The notes under the pieces were generated by a model. It did not search any database. It saw nothing but the letters and a program-made list of their open reading frames with translations, and was not told the DNA's origin. A DNA stretch of 4,231 nt from the IMG/VR virus record IMGVR_UViG_2778260979_000026; one strand, 5' to 3'. The DNA is from a virus (lineage: Duplodnaviria > Heunggongvirae > Uroviricota > Caudoviricetes). Below, piece after piece: positions 1-4,231 of this stretch (within the stretch, counting starts at the first letter, position 1; each line of letters starts with the position of its first letter). Position numbers and translations under genes: made by a program.

Positions 1-282
1 ACTGCGCATACGGGCCACCAGCAGAGGCGGCATTGCCTTTTCGATCGCCGGTAACAGAGCCTGCATTTTTTCAACAGCATCAGGGGTGTCTTTATCCAGC
101 CAACGGAAAATTTTCTGGGTATTACGAGCCAGGGCTTCCGGATGGCTGTCGTCGTACAGTTCCGGGAACGTCATCCCCAGTTCGAAATAAGTCCGGGCTA
201 TTTCAGCTGCAGGAACTTTCTCACCATCAGGATATGCCCAGGCATTCATCGCCATGCGGATGTGCTCATGTTTGATTTTCAT
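1..282 (-). CDS. ydaT: YdaT-like prophage regulatory protein, N-terminal part only; the gene runs off the left edge of the window
   Basis: Hand translation of the minus strand from ATG at 282..280 gives MKIKHEHIRMAMNAWAYPDGEKVPAAEIARTYFELGMTFPELYDDSHPEALARNTQKIFRWLDKDTPDAVEKMQALLPAIEKAMPPLLVARMRS, open to position 1. It is absent from the ORF track because there is no stop in the window. The N-terminus matches my recollection of Rac prophage YdaT (memory, not a search). A GAGG lies about 10 nt upstream of the ATG. The start overlaps the 3' end of the ydaS-like gene by 17 bp. The + strand ORF 33..275 is its antisense shadow. Confidence 0.7.
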   Translation of the reverse strand, partial: MKIKHEHIRMAMNAWAYPDGEKVPAAEIARTYFELGMTFPELYDDSHPEALARNTQKIFRWLDKDTPDAVEKMQALLPAIEKAMPPLLVARMRS

Positions 283-589
283 GAATCATTTGCCTCTTGA
301 TGCTTCGGGTATGATCGTTTTCGTCATTTGGTTGCTTCATCGACATATTCTGCGAATAACATGACGAGCGTCGTAAGTATGTCCAATCAACATCAGGACG
401 AAGTTCTTCACACAGGACACCACCTTTTGTTGCTCGTTCAATCGCAGGACATCTCTCAGCAGGCAACTGACGTACACCTTTGATCCATTGATTTACGCTT
501 GGAGGAGATACACCTAAAAGCCTAGCCATTGCTGATTGCCCACCGACAACAGCACAAGCTCGTTTGAATGAATAGTTATCTTTTTTCAT
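266..589 (-). CDS. ydaS: Cro-like helix-turn-helix DNA-binding protein (YdaS family)
   Basis: The ORF track protein contains MKKDNYSFKRACAVVGGQSAMARLLGVSPPSVNQWIKGVRQLPAERCPAIERATKGGVLCEELRPDVDW, which matches Rac YdaS closely from memory. I chose the ATG at 589..587, which has a GGAG about 7 nt upstream on the minus strand, over the track start at 610. It is divergent from racR across an operator region. Confidence 0.85.
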   Translation of the reverse strand: MKKDNYSFKRACAVVGGQSAMARLLGVSPPSVNQWIKGVRQLPAERCPAIERATKGGVLCEELRPDVDWTYLRRSSCYSQNMSMKQPNDENDHTRSIKRQMIHENQT

Positions 590-618: not shown

Positions 619-687
619 ATTAGGCTTAGCCTAATGCAATTGTCAATAGGCTATGCCTAACACTTCGAGAGTAGGCATTGCCTAATG
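619..687. promoter_or_regulatory. OR-type operator cluster and divergent promoter region between ydaS and racR
   Basis: Three spaced inverted repeats of the form TAGGC-N3-GCCTA: ATTAGGCTTAGCCTAAT at 619..635, TAGGCTATGCCTA at 647..659 and TAGGCATTGCCTA at 672..684. A perfect -35 TTGACA lies on the minus strand (+ coordinates 646..641) with TAATAT 18 bp downstream, pointing at ydaS. An AGGAG at 698..702 precedes the racR ATG. Confidence 0.7.
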
Positions 688-713: not shown

Positions 714-1190
714 ATGCTTAGTGGTAAAGACTTAGGCCGAGCGATAGAGCAGGCCATTAACAAAAAAATTGCATCAGGAGCCGTCAAATCAAAGGCGGAA
801 ATCGCACGTCATTTCAAAGTCCAACCACCATCAATCCATGACTGGATTAAGAAAGGTTCGATAAGTAAAGACAAACTTCCAGAACTATGGCGTTTCTTTT
901 CTGATGTGGTTGGTCCAGAGCATTGGGGGCTTAACGAATACCCCATACCAACCCCATCCACTTCAGATACAAAAAGTGAACTTTTAGACATAAACAGCCT
1001 TTATCAAGCCGCCTCTGATGAAAAAAGAGCAATTGTGGCTTTCCTCTTATCTGGAAATGCTACGGAGCCTAGTTGGGTTGATCATGACGTTCGTGCCTAC
1101 ATTGCCGCAATGGAAATGAAGGTAGCTAACTATCTGAAAAATCAAGAATCAAAACGGAAAAGCCAGAACATCACCAAGACAGGAACTTAA
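714..1190 (+). CDS. racR: Prophage repressor RacR (CI functional analogue)
   Basis: The 158-aa product MLSGKDLGRAIEQAINKKIASGAVKSKAEIARHFKVQPPSIHDWIKKGSISKDKLPELWRFFSDVVGPEHWGLNEYPIPTPSTSDTKSELLDINSLYQAAS... is near-identical to E. coli Rac RacR as I recall it, at the same length. It is divergent from the cro-like gene and flanked on both sides by operator palindromes. Confidence 0.9.
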   Translation: MLSGKDLGRAIEQAINKKIASGAVKSKAEIARHFKVQPPSIHDWIKKGSISKDKLPELWRFFSDVVGPEHWGLNEYPIPTPSTSDTKSELLDINSLYQAASDEKRAIVAFLLSGNATEPSWVDHDVRAYIAAMEMKVANYLKNQESKRKSQNITKTGT

Positions 1191-1283: not shown

Positions 1284-1327
1284 ATTAGGCGTAGCCTATT
1301 GACAAGCAATTAGGCATTTCCTATAGT
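1284..1327 (+). promoter_or_regulatory. OL-type operators overlapping a near-consensus sigma70 promoter (pL analogue) reading rightward
   Basis: -35 TTGACA at 1299..1304, a 17-bp spacer, then -10 TATAGT at 1322..1327. Operator-like palindromes ATTAGGCGTAGCCTATT (1284..1300) and TAGGCATTTCCTA (1312..1324, one mismatch) overlap the -35 and the spacer/-10. A weaker half-site TATTAGGT lies at 1265..1271. Confidence 0.65.
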
Positions 1328-1427
1328 TTTCCCATACCAACCCATCCCGTCCCACACAATACAGGGCAATACCTAGAGTTACCCGGCAGTGGTCAGGGAT
1401 TAAGTAGCCAGCCCGAGGCGTAAGAAC

Positions 1428-1658
1428 ATGACGGCAGGGTTCAACTTTAACTATGCAGCAGGTTTTTGTTCCGCTACCCCGGCGTTAAGGGGATATGAGG
1501 TCAGCATGGATACTCTTGATCTTGGCAACAACGAATCTCTGGTGTGCGGCGTGTTTCCCAACCAGGACGGCACGTTCACCGCGATGACGTATACCAAAAG
1601 CAAAACGTTTAAAACCGAATCTGGCGCGCGTCGCTGGTTAGCAAGAAACTCTGACTAA
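1428..1658 (+). CDS. Small hypothetical prophage protein, first ORF downstream of the pL-like promoter
   Basis: A 76-aa ORF with GAGG about 10 nt upstream of the ATG at 1428. An in-frame ATG at 1506 has a better-spaced GAGGT 5 nt upstream and would give a 50-aa product. Its position corresponds to the ydaG/ydaF slot of Rac. I do not recognise the sequence with confidence. Confidence 0.5.
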   Translation: MTAGFNFNYAAGFCSATPALRGYEVSMDTLDLGNNESLVCGVFPNQDGTFTAMTYTKSKTFKTESGARRWLARNSD

Positions 1659-1740
1659 TGAAATCTGGTAATTAAGGAATCCTCCACGGGGGGAGAGTGG
1701 TGCACACGCGCCGGACACAAGCAAGCATCCGGCATGCTCT

Positions 1741-1760
1741 TTAACAATCTGGATATCCAT
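1741..1760. repeat. TTAACAA-TCT-GGATATCC element 13 bp downstream of the stop of the antisense gene
   Basis: Contains the palindrome GGATATCC (1751..1758). ATCTGGATATCC (1746..1757, extendable to 13 bp) is the exact reverse complement of GGATATCCAGAT at 2313..2324. TTAACAA is also shared with 2324..2330. Confidence 0.5.
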
Positions 1761-1772
1761 AACAGTAAAAAT

Positions 1773-2264
1773 CTACAGATTGCCGTTCAGTTTTCTGGCC
1801 AACTCTTCAATAGATGGAGGTGATACGTAATCCGGATTTTTATTCATAAGAAACTGATTTTCACAGTACAGGCACCTGCTTTTATGAAAAAATTCATATT
1901 CTCTAACCGGGAATGGCTGAAGTATCGATACTATCTTTTGTCCAAAACATTTTGGACAAAGATGCATGATTATGCTGCCGCCGTTCACGGTTACCTCCTT
2001 CGAGTACACAAAAGTTCCCGACTCAAGTTGGCTAAGGATATAACCTTCCGTCTGAGCCTCAAAGTTTTCAAATTCTGCAATTTTAGCTTTGAGAGAAGCA
2101 TTTATTTCTTGATAAGTGCCCACCAGCTCAACGAGAGACACGCATTCGCGCTGAATAGATGCAAGCTTTGAGTTCAGTTCACCAATAGCCGCATTTACTT
2201 CAGCTTGAGTTTTTGCCTCGTTCATTAGTTTTGCAATCTGGGCGGTTTCACGAATAGCCGTCAT
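1773..2264 (-). CDS. Hypothetical protein with a coiled-coil-like N-terminus and a C-terminal CxxC-x22-CxxC zinc ribbon; candidate moron or exclusion gene
   Basis: Minus strand ORF ending at TAG 1775..1773. Start chosen at ATG 2264..2262, giving MTAIRETAQIAKLMNEAKTQAEVNAAIGELNSKLASIQRECVSLVELVGTYQEINASLKAKIAEFENFEAQTEGYILSQLESGTFVYSKEVTVNGGSIIMHLCPKCFGQKIVSILQPFPVREYEFFHKSRCLYCENQFLMNKNPDYVSPPSIEELARKLNGNL. The track's longer version starts at a TTG at 2441 and translates the upstream repeats into Pro/Arg-rich sequence, which looks non-coding. There is no obvious Shine-Dalgarno, so the exact start is uncertain (the next in-frame ATG is at 2225). The gene is oriented against its neighbours and is more AT-rich than they are. 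Confidence 0.6.
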   Translation of the reverse strand: MTAIRETAQIAKLMNEAKTQAEVNAAIGELNSKLASIQRECVSLVELVGTYQEINASLKAKIAEFENFEAQTEGYILSQLESGTFVYSKEVTVNGGSIIMHLCPKCFGQKIVSILQPFPVREYEFFHKSRCLYCENQFLMNKNPDYVSPPSIEELARKLNGNL

Positions 2265-2302
2265 TGCTGCCGTTAATTCAGCGATCACATTCAATACTCT
2301 TA

Positions 2303-2372: not shown

Positions 2373-2810
2373 GTGGTAAAAAGCAGGCACACAACACGAA
2401 AGCACACGGCGAGGGACACCATTAAATGGTGGCTTAAGCAATCACGCGAAGCGCAATCTGCCATTATGACCGATGAAATCCCGTTAGATGATGCACTGTT
2501 ACAATTGCGGGAATTTATCGACGAAAACTCCGGTGAATTTTTTGTTCAGGTCTGGGGAAATGGAGCCAACTTCGACAACACGATTTTGCGCCGTTCATAC
2601 GAACGGCAGGGGATCCCCTGCCCGTGGCGTTACTACAACGATCGCGATGTACGCACAATCGTTGAGCTGGGGAAAGCCATAGACTTCGATGCCAGAACGG
2701 CTATTCCATTCGAAGGTGAGCGCCATAATGCACTTGATGACGCCCGTTACCAGGCAAAATACGTTTCAGTTATCTGGCAAAAACTGATCCCGAATCAGGC
2801 TGATTTTTAA
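2373..2810 (+). CDS. DEDDh-type 3'-5' exonuclease family protein (Rv2179c-like), apparently 5'-truncated
   Basis: The product carries an Exo II-like motif (WGNGANFDNTILRRSYER) and an Exo III-like Hx4D motif (HNALDDARYQAKY) but no N-terminal hydrophobic-strand/DxE Exo I motif. The first ~13 residues (MVKSRHTTRKHTA, from a GTG start) do not resemble the family. An in-frame ATG is at 2466. Neither start has a convincing Shine-Dalgarno. Confidence 0.65.
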   Translation: MVKSRHTTRKHTARDTIKWWLKQSREAQSAIMTDEIPLDDALLQLREFIDENSGEFFVQVWGNGANFDNTILRRSYERQGIPCPWRYYNDRDVRTIVELGKAIDFDARTAIPFEGERHNALDDARYQAKYVSVIWQKLIPNQADF

Positions 2811-2874: not shown

Positions 2875-3123
2875 ATGGCAAGACTTATTCTGCTCACTGA
2901 GTGGGCAAAAGAGGAATTCAGTGAACCGGTCCCAACTCCGAGTACGTTAAGTAAATACGCTAAAGCCGGAATGATATTTCCTCTCCCCAAAAAAGTTGGA
3001 AGACGCTGGCGAGTGGATCCGCAAGCTCGCTTTGTCGGAATGGTAAACAAGCCGGAGGTGATCGCCACAGATCACCCTGCTTTGAAGAGGATACTGGAAG
3101 ATGGCGCGCCCGCGAAAATATAA
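2875..3123 (+). CDS. xis: Excisionase (Xis, DNA-binding)
   Basis: An 82-aa basic protein, MARLILLTEWAKEEF...GMIFPLPKKVGRRWRVDPQARFVG, typical of excisionases. It lies immediately upstream of int and overlaps it by 23 bp. Confidence 0.8.
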   Translation: MARLILLTEWAKEEFSEPVPTPSTLSKYAKAGMIFPLPKKVGRRWRVDPQARFVGMVNKPEVIATDHPALKRILEDGAPAKI

Positions 3124-4231
3124 AACCGATGTTCCGGGATTATCTCCGTATTTTGACAAAAGAAATAACAAAGTTTACTGGCGTTACAGGCATCCCATAA
3201 CAGGCAAAAATCACGGTCTCGGCAGTATTGACCAGAAACTGGCAGAAACTATTGCAGCAGAAGCGAACAGCCGTCTTGCCCGGCAGCAAATGGAACAAAT
3301 GCTCAGTCTGCAGGAGAAAATTATTAGTGATACCGGCGGTTCATCAACCGTTACCATTTTTCTGAATAATTACAGAAAAATTCAACAGGAAAGATATGAA
3401 AACGGCGAGATCAAACTCAACACGCTGAAACAGAAAGCGGCCCCTCTCAGGGTATTTGATGAACGTTTTGGCACCAGACCGTTAGATGCCATAACCGTAA
3501 AAGATGTGGTATCAGTACTGGAAGAGTACAAGGCCAGAGGACATAACAGAATGGGACAAATTTTCAGGAAAGTACTGATCGATGTTTTCCGGGAAGCTCA
3601 GCAAACGGGCGATGTCCCGCCAGGCTTTAACCCTGCAGAATCGGCAAAAAAACCGCAGGTGCGGATATCAAGACAGCGACTGACTTTTGATGAGTGGATG
3701 ATGATTTATAACGCAGCGGAAAAGGATGGTTACTTTTTACAGCGCGGTATGCTGCTGGCACTGATGACAGGCCAGCGCCTTTCAGATATTTGCAAAATGC
3801 AATTTTCGGATATCCGGGATGGTTATCTTCATGTCGAACAGCAAAAAACAGGAACCCGGATTGCCATCCCTCTGGCTCTGCGTTGCGATAAATTAAATCT
3901 CACCCTGGATGATGTGGTGTCATCCTGCCGCGATTGCGTTCTTAGTCCGTGGCTATTGCACCACCATCACGCGAAAGGGACAGCTAAGCGCGGCGGGATG
4001 GTTAAGCCAGCAACATTAACCGTTGCATTTAAAAAAGCCCGGGATTCTGTGGATTACAACTGGCGTGCTAATGGCACCCCTCCCTCTTTCCATGAGCAGA
4101 GATCTTTATCAGAGCGATTGTTCAGAGAGCAGGGGGTTGATACCAAAATTTTGCTAGGCCATTCGAATCAAAAAATGACCGATATTTACAACGACGCACG
4201 CGGTAAGGAATGGAAAAAACTGGTCATTTGA
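3101..4231 (+). CDS. int: Tyrosine site-specific integrase (lambda Int family)
   Basis: A 376-aa product with an arm-binding-type N-terminus (MARPRKYKTDVPGLSPYF...). Catalytic signature elements are visible: R in GQRLSDI, H-x-x-R in HEQRSLSERL, and the H...Y pair in LLGHSNQKMTDIYNDARGKEW. The stop TGA is the last codon of the window. Confidence 0.9.
   Translation: MARPRKYKTDVPGLSPYFDKRNNKVYWRYRHPITGKNHGLGSIDQKLAETIAAEANSRLARQQMEQMLSLQEKIISDTGGSSTVTIFLNNYRKIQQERYENGEIKLNTLKQKAAPLRVFDERFGTRPLDAITVKDVVSVLEEYKARGHNRMGQIFRKVLIDVFREAQQTGDVPPGFNPAESAKKPQVRISRQRLTFDEWMMIYNAAEKDGYFLQRGMLLALMTGQRLSDICKMQFSDIRDGYLHVEQQKTGTRIAIPLALRCDKLNLTLDDVVSSCRDCVLSPWLLHHHHAKGTAKRGGMVKPATLTVAFKKARDSVDYNWRANGTPPSFHEQRSLSERLFREQGVDTKILLGHSNQKMTDIYNDARGKEWKKLVI

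What the first reader, a model, noticed from the sequence alone, without database searches (positions are those of the whole stretch)
1428..1658. Small first gene of the rightward operon, with two candidate starts and unknown function
It occupies the position held by N, kil or small ydaF/ydaG-type genes in relatives, but is not arginine-rich like N. The internal ATG at 1506 has the better ribosome-binding site and would give a 50-aa product. Small early-operon proteins in prophages are often host-takeover or toxic factors.
Basis: inference. Interest (0 to 1): 0.35.

Follow-up and report, generated by a model that had tools for sequence, protein, structure and literature searches.

The report
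ydfA-type small early prophage gene
The ORF is real, but the gene is only the 50-codon part (1506..1658), an already annotated YdfA/YdaF (DUF1391) protein that is the first gene behind a repressor-controlled early promoter of an E. coli O157:H7 lambdoid prophage; its function is still unknown, and the one new clue is that the same domain sits inside injected anti-restriction-type "polyvalent" proteins.

Summary
The ORF 1428..1658 exists as described. The gene itself is 1506..1658 (50 aa). It is 100% identical to a RefSeq "DUF1391 family protein" of E. coli O157:H7 and 92% identical to K-12 YdfA.

The Pfam DUF1391 profile is matched end to end by residues 2-49 of the short form. In 61 distinct related loci the 1506 ATG is always present. 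The 1428 ATG occurs in only 33 of them, and in 17 of those (window included) it reads in frame and without a stop into the gene. Codon-position variation is 7/9/30 in the core and 10/15/12 in 1428-1505. So 1428-1505 is 5' leader.

A near-consensus sigma-70 promoter (1299-1327) is bracketed by two copies of the operator palindrome that occurs three times in the racR/ydaS intergenic region. The gene is therefore silent in the lysogen and first in line on derepression.

Function is unknown: no solved structure, no informative fold match, no characterisation found in the held library. Published K-12 data argue against toxicity.

The new lead is that DUF1391 is also an internal domain of DarA-N proteins, whose DarA-N region matches a "released upon infection" family, and of ArdC-N/DUF3560 mobile-element proteins. 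This suggests an immediate-early counter-defence or host-binding role. The finding itself is ordinary.

The parts
1286..1298 (.). Operator palindrome TAGGCGTAGCCTA, abutting the -35 hexamer
   Evidence: Perfect match to TAGGC-N3-GCCTA. That pattern has 7 matches with up to 2 mismatches in the window against 1.1 expected, and 0 of 200 shuffles reach 7. Three perfect copies lie in the racR/ydaS intergenic region at 621-633, 647-659 and 672-684.
1299..1327 (+). Sigma-70 promoter-like site TTGACA-17-TATAGT; the expected transcription start is about 1334
   Evidence: 11 of 12 consensus matches. DNA similarity of the leader module to other prophages begins at window 1333-1335, which is where the transcript should start.
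1311..1323 (.). Second operator copy, TAGGCATTTCCTA (1 mismatch), overlapping the spacer and the -10 hexamer
1334..1505 (+). 5' leader of the ydfA transcript.
   Evidence: No third-position bias in 1428-1505 (variable sites 10/15/12 of 26 per codon position). 1-nt indels occur at about 1440 and 1477. The 1428 ATG reads into ydfA in frame and without a stop in only 17 of 33 loci that have this leader, and it is absent from the other 28 loci. The same leader precedes other genes in phage Evi and in strain DG343-1. The fold is no better than shuffles (z=+1.49) and there is no covariation. Rfam gives nothing.
1468..1493 (+). Conserved 26-nt box GTTCCGCTACCCCGGCGTTAAGGGGA, with a possible 4-bp hairpin CCCC/GGGG, at the 3' end of the leader
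   Evidence: It is present in all 61 ydfA loci whatever the upstream leader type, and also in front of non-ydfA genes. In IMG/VR, of 113 occurrences with enough downstream sequence to call, 104 were followed by ydfA and 9 by other ORFs, 6 of them the Evi-type gene. One CCCC/GGGG to ACCC/GGGT double change was seen. Function unknown.
1497..1500 (+). Shine-Dalgarno core GAGG, 5 nt before the ATG
   Evidence: Read from the sequence. Conserved in all aligned loci.
1506..1658 (+). ydfA-type gene: 50 aa, DUF1391/PF07151, PHROG 751. Sequence: MDTLDLGNNESLVCGVFPNQDGTFTAMTYTKSKTFKTESGARRWLARNSD
   Evidence: Pfam E=1.9e-30, profile positions 1-48 of 48 on residues 2-49. PGAP CDS WP_001414141.1. ATG conserved in 61 of 61 loci. 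Variable sites per codon position 7/9/30 of 47. AlphaFold2 model has strands 15-18, 24-27 and 32-35 and a helix at 38-48, mean pLDDT 77.9.
1666..1734 (+). Two-hairpin non-coding element downstream of ydfA, shared with other dicBF-type early operons
   Evidence: About 77-80% identical to intergenic stretches in L003, L034, L041, L053, L055, L060, L073 and L084, where it lies about 550-1200 nt downstream of the ydfA start. Fold z=-1.7 only. Function unknown.

Best explanation
Window 1506..1658 encodes a 50-aa YdfA/YdaF-family (DUF1391) protein. Window 1428-1505 is not part of the protein. It is the 3' part of a roughly 170-nt untranslated leader.

The gene is transcribed from a near-consensus sigma-70 promoter at 1299-1327. 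That promoter is sandwiched between two copies of the operator palindrome TAGGC-N3-GCCTA, which also occurs three times between the divergent racR-type repressor gene and the ydaS-type gene. In the lysogen the gene should therefore be off. On derepression it is the first protein made from the int-proximal early operon. The same layout is seen in K-12 Qin (dicA, dicBp, ydfA) and in the plaque-forming phage mEp460.

Proposed mechanism (inference, about 35% likely): YdfA is a small, non-enzymatic binding module with three strands and a helix. Its invariant but flexible G-N-N-E loop and its conserved S-K-x-F-K-T / G-A-x-x-W face would dock onto a host or defence component, or onto the incoming nucleic acid, in the first minutes after infection or induction. 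That is a counter-defence or host-takeover accessory function. It is neither a structural role nor an antitermination role, and the protein is not toxic by itself.

The reasoning is that the same domain is built into large multi-domain proteins of the 'polyvalent' type, which enter the cell together with the DNA.

Gene identity, start codon and repressor control are shown or strongly supported (about 95%, 95% and 80%). The biochemical role is inferred.
For: Identity:
- Pfam DUF1391 full-length match and PHROG 751.
- 100% DNA identity to O157:H7 genomes, where PGAP calls 1506..1658 'DUF1391 family protein'.
- 92% identity to K-12 YdfA.

Start codon:
- The profile begins at residue 2 of the short form.
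- K-12 DNA similarity starts only at window 1468.
- ATG 1506 is present in 61 of 61 loci. ATG 1428 is fused in frame and open in 17 of 33 and absent elsewhere.
- Codon-position variability is 7/9/30 in the core and 10/15/12 in 1428-1505. Synonymous to non-synonymous codon differences are 12074:5855 in the core and 739:2247 in 1428-1505.

Regulation:
- Promoter.
- Operators enriched, 7 found against 1.1 expected.
- RacR equivalog, E=9e-74.
- In K-12, DicA represses dicBp 22-fold and the transcript starts upstream of ydfA (PMC10448788).
- Same gene order in phage mEp460.

Function lead:
- DUF1391 scores 62-81 bits inside proteins of 440-935 aa that also carry DarA_N (P0191, P0192, P0193, P0201, P0206) and inside ArdC_N + DUF3560 proteins (P0188, P0232).
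- The DarA_N region of those proteins hits PHROG 1926, 'released from the phage upon host infection'.
- Two of these long genes were confirmed as intact ORFs on a phage-like contig and on a contig that also carries a phage-type integrase gene.
- In distant phages the stand-alone gene sits in long arrays of small genes, next to a DNA methylase in one case.
- Fourteen invariant residues, including G7-N8-N9-E10, in a region of low model confidence fit a binding loop.
- Non-toxicity: K-12 operon induction without dicF and dicB is harmless (PMC5069750).
Against: - No direct functional data exist for any DUF1391 protein in the held literature.
- The domain-fusion argument is guilt by association. 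Polyvalent proteins also carry adaptor, DNA-binding and packaging-related domains, so the fusion does not specify counter-defence.
- The polyvalent-protein survey (PMC5512222) does not mention DUF1391 or ydfA.
- No PADLOC hit, no PDB sequence hit better than E=0.24, and no Foldseek hit below E=0.08, all of them uncharacterised proteins.
- No conserved partner gene across distant phages.
- Promoter, operators and transcription start are consensus matches and analogies. They were not measured in this prophage.
- Expression of YdfA protein was not verified in the K-12 toxicity experiment.
Confidence: 0.8

Rival explanations
1. The full 76-aa ORF from ATG 1428 is the real product: YdfA with an N-terminal extension.
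For: The ORF is open, and ATG 1428 has a GAGG 9 nt upstream. Many automatic gene callers predict products of 65-86 aa. The PHROG 751 profile (70 positions) extends upstream of the core.
Against: The extension is frameshifted or interrupted in 16 of 33 loci with this leader and has no counterpart in the other 28. It shows no third-position bias and an excess of non-synonymous differences. The extensions in the database are mutually frameshifted or unrelated sequences. The Pfam profile and PGAP both start at 1506.
Confidence: 0.03
2. ATG 1428 starts a short, sequence-unconstrained upstream ORF in the leader. Its translation would modulate ydfA expression, for example through coupling, through opening of the CCCC/GGGG hairpin, or through protection from Rho.
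For: ATG 1428 and its GAGG are kept in all 33 leaders of this type. In 12 frameshifted variants the uORF (18-20 codons) ends 17 nt before the ydfA ATG, and in one variant (24 codons) it ends 7 nt before it. The 5' part of the leader is C-rich, G-poor and unstructured, which looks like a Rho loading site.
Against: uORF length varies from 4 to 24 codons, or the uORF is fused to ydfA, so no consistent geometry is maintained. The leader as a whole is about 80-92% identical among these loci, so retention of the ATG may reflect only recent common descent. There is no expression data.
Confidence: 0.1
3. YdfA is a toxic or cell-division-inhibiting host-takeover factor of the Kil/DicB kind.
For: It is a small early-operon gene near where kil and dicB lie in relatives.
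Against: There is no similarity to Kil or DicB; the only Pfam hit is DUF1391. K-12 cells induced for the operon without dicF and dicB, but with ydfA, grow and look normal (PMC5069750). Sequence matching the query, mostly covering ydfA, is carried by 4208 of 5426 complete E. coli genomes, with up to 8 matching places per genome.
Confidence: 0.07
4. YdfA is a small nucleic-acid-binding regulator of the phage's own early programme, for example a DNA- or RNA-binding accessory to the repressor switch or to transcript processing, rather than an anti-host factor.
For: The C-terminal half is basic (K31, K33, K36, R42, R43, R47) with conserved K33, K36 and R47. The gene is always next to the immunity region in enterobacterial prophages. 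It is fused to the ssDNA-binding ArdC-N domain in mobile-element proteins.
Against: Net charge is about zero, and there is no helix-turn-helix, ribbon-helix-helix or other known nucleic-acid-binding fold. In virulent-type phages it lies far from any repressor. The gene is mosaic with respect to immunity type, since at least four leader and immunity types are joined to the same ydfA. That argues against a partner-specific regulator.
Confidence: 0.2
5. It is a relative of the phage head decoration protein gpD/SHP, as several deposited phage records label it ('head-DNA stabilization protein D').
For: A 19-22-residue match to phage 21 SHP (PDB 1td0, 1td3), E=0.24-0.31. The label appears in records listed.
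Against: The match is not significant and covers under 20% of SHP. The protein is half the size of gpD. The gene lies in the early region next to the repressor, not in the head module. Foldseek gives no gpD hit.
Confidence: 0.01

Closest known systems
YdfA of the E. coli K-12 Qin prophage, first gene of the dicBF operon (ydfABC-dicF-dicB-ydfD)
   Same: 92% amino-acid identity over 49 residues. Same length class (50 against 51 aa). Same position as the first ORF after a repressor-controlled promoter beside the immunity genes. Same 38-nt upstream box and Shine-Dalgarno sequence.
   Different: The immunity region is RacR/YdaS/YdaT-type here and DicA/DicC-type in Qin. The leader upstream of 1468 is unrelated. 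Here ydfB, ydfC, dicF and dicB are absent, and ydfA is followed by a two-hairpin element, an inserted convergent gene and a truncated exonuclease.
YdaF of the Rac prophage, and 'YdaF family' proteins as named by NCBI
   Same: Same Pfam family. 87% identity to a protein that NCBI calls 'YdaF family'. Same repressor type (RacR) as in Rac.
   Different: The K-12 YdaF sequence and its context were not fetched here. That ydaF lies beside racR in Rac is from my own knowledge, not a tool result.
DUF1391 domains inside polyvalent-type proteins (DarA_N + DUF1391; ArdC_N + DUF1391 + DUF3560)
   Same: The same domain, above the Pfam threshold (62-81 bits), with the G-N-[NG]-E, S-K-x-F-K-T and G-A-x-x-W motifs kept.
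   Different: Those are proteins of 440-935 aa. Their DarA_N region matches PHROG 1926, 'released from the phage upon host infection', and the ArdC_N type is described for mobile elements that enter with the DNA. The window gene is a stand-alone 50-aa protein expressed from the genome. The window protein is not itself a polyvalent protein.
Lambda N and other first genes of the pL operon (N, Ral, Kil)
   Same: Position only: first ORF after an operator-controlled early promoter that points towards xis and int.
   Different: No sequence similarity to N, Ral or Kil, since the only Pfam hit is DUF1391. No arginine-rich motif. No boxA-boxB nut site in the leader: the boxA pattern scan found none between 1334 and 1505, and Rfam found nothing.

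Membership tests
DUF1391 / YdfA-YdaF family (Pfam PF07151, PHROG 751) | Significant full-length match to the family profile, above the curated threshold | tested here: met
   104.7 bits against a cut-off of 27.3, profile positions 1-48 of 48. PHROG 751 E=2.5e-36.
DUF1391 / YdfA-YdaF family (Pfam PF07151, PHROG 751) | Family-invariant residues (G7 N8 N9 E10 G15 D21 G22 A26 S32 F35 K36 G40 A41 W44 in a 55-sequence alignment down to 54% identity) | tested here: met
   All are present in the window protein, which is the reference row of alignment A2.
DUF1391 / YdfA-YdaF family (Pfam PF07151, PHROG 751) | Stand-alone protein of about 50 aa under purifying selection | tested here: met
   50 aa. Variable sites per codon position 7/9/30 across 61 loci.
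DUF1391 / YdfA-YdaF family (Pfam PF07151, PHROG 751) | In enterobacterial lambdoid prophages, first gene after the repressor-controlled early promoter on the int side | tested here: met
Lambda N-type antiterminators | Arginine-rich RNA-binding motif at the N-terminus, and similarity to the N family | tested here: not met
   No Pfam hit other than DUF1391. The first 25 residues of the 50-aa protein contain no arginine; the protein has 3 in all, at R42, R43 and R47.
Lambda N-type antiterminators | A nut site (boxA followed by a boxB hairpin) in the leader upstream of, or around, the gene | tested here: not met
   No boxA-like match between 1334 and 1505. Leader not structured. No Rfam hit.
Kil / DicB-type division inhibitors | Sequence similarity to Kil or DicB | tested here: not met
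   No Pfam or PHROG hit to those families. Kil and DicB are separate genes further downstream in relatives.
Kil / DicB-type division inhibitors | Expression blocks division or is toxic | not testable with these tools
   Indirect evidence only: the K-12 operon lacking dicF and dicB but keeping ydfA is harmless when induced (PMC5069750).
Polyvalent proteins (Iyer et al. 2017, PMC5512222) | Two or more effector or adaptor domains in one polypeptide, delivered with the invading DNA | tested here: not met
   The window protein is a single 50-aa domain. Only its domain is shared with such proteins.
gpD / SHP head decoration proteins | Significant similarity to gpD/SHP over the roughly 110-aa fold, and location in the head gene module | tested here: not met
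   E=0.24-0.31 over 19-22 residues only. The gene lies in the early region.

The most novel reading that the evidence does not exclude
DUF1391 is an unrecognised counter-defence or host-interception module, for example anti-restriction. Phages would deploy it in two ways: as a domain of capsid-delivered DarA-N polyvalent proteins and ArdC-N/DUF3560 mobile-element proteins, and as the very first gene of the repressor-controlled early operon of Rac/Qin-type lambdoid prophages. The invariant G-N-N-E loop would be the contact site. Sequence matching the query, mostly covering ydfA, is present in about 78% of complete E. coli genomes. Copies retained in cryptic prophages could then also affect superinfecting phages or incoming plasmids.
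Probability: 0.25. Interest if true: 0.6.

Novelty: already known. Interest (0 to 1): 0.28.

Why it matters
As a gene call it changes nothing. RefSeq already annotates 1506..1658 as a DUF1391 protein, and the family has been listed as 'unknown function' since K-12 was sequenced.

Two results have some value.

1. The start-codon question is settled by comparative evidence. This also shows that many database entries of 65-86 aa, and PHROG 37620, are built on leader sequence.

2. YdfA/YdaF is among the most widespread uncharacterised prophage genes of E. coli. Finding its domain inside DarA-N and ArdC-N multi-domain proteins turns 'unknown' into a testable hypothesis of an immediate-early binding or counter-defence module. 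If that held, it would add a very common small anti-defence protein, and it would explain why cryptic prophages keep this gene at the head of a tightly repressed operon.

Tried and rejected
- Rfam, permissive scan of the whole window: no hit with E up to 1, so no DicF, no known leader and no nut family.
- Leader as a structured RNA: the minimum free energy is no better than shuffles (z=+1.49). The RNAalifold covariation term is -0.01, with one isolated double change. The 1462-1512 hairpin region has z=0.05.
- Leader peptide: the uORF length is inconsistent.
- PDB by sequence, single protein and profile: only a 19-22-residue chance-level match to the phage 21 head decoration protein.
- Foldseek of the AlphaFold2 model against PDB and BFVD: nothing below E=0.08, and the best viral hits are all uncharacterised small proteins.
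- PADLOC: no hit for any of the four proteins tested. NCBIfam: no hit for YdfA or for the convergent 171-aa protein; RacR did hit.
- Conserved neighbour across distant phages: none.
- Plasmid collection: 19 records, mostly E. coli records hundreds of kilobases to megabases long. No sign of a link to plasmid leading regions; neighbouring genes were not inspected.
- Literature: no paper in the held library characterises YdfA, YdaF or DUF1391. The 'ydfA' of IncI-type plasmids in PMC12111858 appears to be an unrelated gene that shares the name; its sequence was not compared.
- Other fusion partners of DUF1391 (P0199, P0213, P0215, P0260 and others) have no informative Pfam or PHROG domain beyond DUF1391; P0213 has only a weak hit to the unknown-function PHROG 8883.

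Full report
WHAT IS THERE

The window is 100% identical to E. coli O157:H7 chromosomes over the 601 bases tested (1200-1800; 277 records at 99% identity or more). It belongs to a lambdoid prophage whose integrase end abuts potC.

The gene map, in window coordinates, is as follows.
- A YdaS-type helix-turn-helix gene, 266..589 (-).
- A RacR repressor gene, 714..1190 (+), NCBIfam equivalog E=9e-74.
- The ORF in question.
- A convergent gene of unknown function, 1773..2288 (-).
- A 5'-truncated Rv2179c-like 3'-5' exonuclease gene.
- An excisionase gene, 2875..3123.
- An integrase gene, 3101..4231.

The ORF 1428..1658 exists exactly as described, with in-frame ATGs at 1428 and 1506 and a TAA stop at 1656-1658. 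GAGG lies 9 nt before the first ATG and 5 nt before the second.

WHICH START

Five independent lines point to 1506.

1. The Pfam DUF1391 profile (48 positions) is matched end to end by residues 2-49 of the 50-aa form. It scores slightly better without the extension.

2. NCBI's pipeline annotates 1506..1658 in the identical genome.

3. DNA similarity to K-12 ydfA starts only at window 1468.

4. I extracted 61 distinct ydfA loci from related prophage contigs and genomes.
   - The homologue of ATG 1506 is present in all 61.
   - The homologue of ATG 1428 exists only in the 33 loci that share this leader type.
   - In those 33 it reads in frame and without a stop into ydfA in only 17, the window included. 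In the rest, 1-nt indels near 1440 and 1477 turn it into a 4-24-codon dead-end ORF.

5. Variable alignment columns by codon position are 7/9/30 (of 47 each) in 1506-1646 and 10/15/12 (of 26) in 1428-1505. Synonymous to non-synonymous codon differences are 12074:5855 in the core and 739:2247 in 1428-1505.

The many database proteins of 65-86 aa have mutually frameshifted or unrelated N-termini. So 1428-1505 is leader and the product is 50 aa.

HOW IT IS EXPRESSED

A near-consensus sigma-70 site, TTGACA-17-TATAGT, lies at 1299-1327. The palindrome TAGGC-N3-GCCTA occurs perfectly three times between the divergent racR and ydaS genes, at 621, 647 and 672. It occurs once perfectly at 1286-1298, touching the -35 hexamer, and once with one mismatch at 1311-1323, over the spacer and the -10 hexamer. 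Seven matches were found against 1.1 expected, and no shuffle out of 200 reached seven.

This is the classical layout of a second operator-controlled early promoter. The gene should be silent in the lysogen and first in line on derepression. In K-12 the analogous promoter dicBp is repressed 22-fold by DicA, and the polycistronic transcript starts upstream of ydfA (PMC10448788). The plaque-forming phage mEp460 has the same order: repressor, ydfA..., dicB..., exonuclease.

Promoter, operators and transcription start are inferred here, not measured.

THE LEADER

The leader runs from about 1334 to 1505 and is a mosaic module of its own. It starts at the expected transcription start. It is joined to several different immunity regions. 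In phage Evi and in strain DG343-1 it precedes other genes.

It is not detectably structured and matches nothing in Rfam. Its last 26 nt (1468-1493, GTTCCGCTACCCCGGCGTTAAGGGGA) are common to all ydfA loci whatever lies upstream. They are also present before non-ydfA genes. I cannot assign this box a function. It may be a recombination boundary, or a small hairpin that affects translation or RNA stability.

WHAT THE PROTEIN IS

It is 92% identical to K-12 YdfA and 87% identical to a protein that NCBI names 'YdaF family'.

The family is larger than its Pfam description suggests. There are 225 clusters at 50% identity and 1194 clusters at 90% identity with a profile search. It is found in temperate Escherichia phages and in Serratia, Pantoea and Salicola phages, in a Pectobacterium genome, and in metagenomic phage contigs.

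Fourteen residues are invariant down to 54% identity: G7 N8 N9 E10 G15 D21 G22 A26 S32 F35 K36 G40 A41 W44.

AlphaFold2 with that alignment gives three short strands and a C-terminal helix, with mean pLDDT 77.9. The invariant G-N-N-E segment has low confidence. That is the signature of a loop that orders on a partner.

Neither PDB nor BFVD contains an informative structural relative. The only PDB sequence match is a chance-level 19-22-residue stretch of the phage 21 head decoration protein. That match explains the wrong label 'head-DNA stabilization protein D' on this gene in several deposited phage genomes.

No paper in the held library characterises YdfA, YdaF or DUF1391. The dicBF papers state explicitly that ydfA, ydfB and ydfC are of unknown function.

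A FUNCTIONAL LEAD

Among the family representatives are proteins of 440-935 aa in which DUF1391 is an internal domain, scoring 62-81 bits.
- Five also carry the DarA N-terminal domain.
- Two carry an ArdC N-terminal domain plus DUF3560.
- The DarA-N part of these proteins matches PHROG 1926, 'released from the phage upon host infection'.
- Two of these genes were verified as intact ORFs, one on a phage-like contig and one on a contig that also carries a phage-type integrase gene.

These are architectures of the 'polyvalent protein' kind described by Iyer et al. 2017: multi-domain proteins that phages and conjugative elements deliver together with their DNA to deal with the host in the first moments. 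That paper does not mention DUF1391.

The stand-alone form shows the same timing by another route. It is the first ORF of an operator-controlled early operon in lambdoid prophages. In larger phages it sits in long arrays of small genes.

My best mechanistic guess, at roughly one in three, is therefore a small non-enzymatic binding module with an immediate-early counter-defence or host-interception role. A nucleic-acid-binding or phage-regulatory role is the main rival, at about one in five.

Inducing the operon with dicF and dicB deleted, but ydfA, ydfB, ydfC and ydfD kept, leaves growth, viability and morphology normal (PMC5069750). YdfA protein levels were not checked in that experiment.

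CONTEXT IN THIS PROPHAGE

The 'rightward operon' is a remnant here. In most relatives ydfA is followed within about 10 nt by a ydfB-type or MEFKD-type small gene. Here it is followed by a two-hairpin non-coding element (1666-1734), which in other prophages lies further down the operon.

Next comes an inserted cassette of about 620 bp that carries the convergent gene 1773..2288. After that comes a short piece of the usual untranslated region (2358-2395). Then the sequence jumps into the middle of the exonuclease gene. The dicF, dicB and kil region is missing.

VERDICT

The gene is an ordinary, already annotated member of a known family of unknown function. The finding itself is of low interest. 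The domain-fusion lead and two things noticed downstream are the parts worth keeping.

Noticed in passing
window 1735-1748 (+), with hairpins at 1666-1734: TGCTCTTTAACAAT is an exact 14-nt match to the E. coli rrn boxA plus spacer, 'ugcucuuuaacaauuua' (PMC2724277 Table 1). It lies 77 nt after the ydfA stop, on the ydfA strand, just after two hairpins. That order (hairpin, then boxA) resembles the order I recall for the rrn leader. An exact 13-mer is expected about 1e-4 times in this window. The motif is unchanged in 7 distinct related contexts whose flanks differ by about 20%, although the motif was itself the search key. It might make RNA polymerase from the ydfA promoter Rho-resistant while it reads antisense through the inserted gene towards the truncated exonuclease gene, xis and int. 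That would be N-independent, rrn-type antitermination. Untested.
   Followed up: partly
window about 1735-2357; compare L045 3228-3990, L066 3594-4340, L043 3925-4600: This is a moron insertion hotspot. A cassette lies between the two-hairpin element and the '...CATAACGCGAAAGCGCACGGCGAGG' untranslated-region sequence. Its ends are conserved (the boxA end, and about 100-160 bp at the other end), but its minus-strand cargo differs. Here the cargo is a 171-aa coiled-coil plus Cys-rich protein (PHROG 1244, unknown function, no PADLOC hit). In L045 and L066 it is a 148-aa protein with a hydrophobic stretch.
   Followed up: partly
window 1333-1493: The early-operon leader is a mobile module in its own right. 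It begins at the predicted transcription start. It is joined to different immunity regions upstream and to different first genes downstream (ydfA here, ydfC in strain DG343-1, a 118-aa ORF in phage Evi). Its 5' end is C-rich and almost G-free (1334-1362). It has no detectable structure and no Rfam match.
   Followed up: partly
window 1468-1493: A 26-nt box, GTTCCGCTACCCCGGCGTTAAGGGGA, lies directly before the Shine-Dalgarno sequence. It is shared by all ydfA loci regardless of leader type. In IMG/VR it also precedes other genes in about 8% of occurrences. One compensatory-looking change was seen (CCCC/GGGG to ACCC/GGGT). It may be a recombination boundary or a small regulatory hairpin.
   Followed up: partly
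window 621-684 and 1286-1323: Five copies of the palindrome TAGGC-N3-GCCTA: three in the racR/ydaS intergenic region and two around the ydfA promoter. These are presumably the RacR-type operators of this immunity type.
   Followed up: partly
window 2373-2810 (+): The Rv2179c-like 3'-5' exonuclease gene lacks its N-terminus: Pfam profile positions 47-177 of 177, and PGAP marks it 'missing N-terminus'. Together with the absence of dicF, dicB and kil, this shows a deletion in the early operon. The prophage is probably defective in this arm.
   Followed up: partly
phage records (e.g. ON470580.1, PV340562.1): ydfA homologues are labelled 'head-DNA stabilization protein D' in several deposited phage genomes. 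The label can be traced to a non-significant 19-22-residue resemblance to the phage 21 SHP protein (E=0.24-0.31). It is an annotation error that is likely to spread.
   Followed up: yes
window 1428-1562 (PHROG 37620): PHROG 37620 (46 positions, 'unknown function') matches residues 1-45 of the 76-aa reading. That stretch is the leader plus the first 19 codons of ydfA. The family therefore appears to be built from mis-called ORFs rather than from a real protein.
   Followed up: partly
P0261 (137 aa) and P0215 (722 aa): Some relatives carry two DUF1391-like repeats in one protein. The domain can therefore be used in tandem.
   Followed up: no
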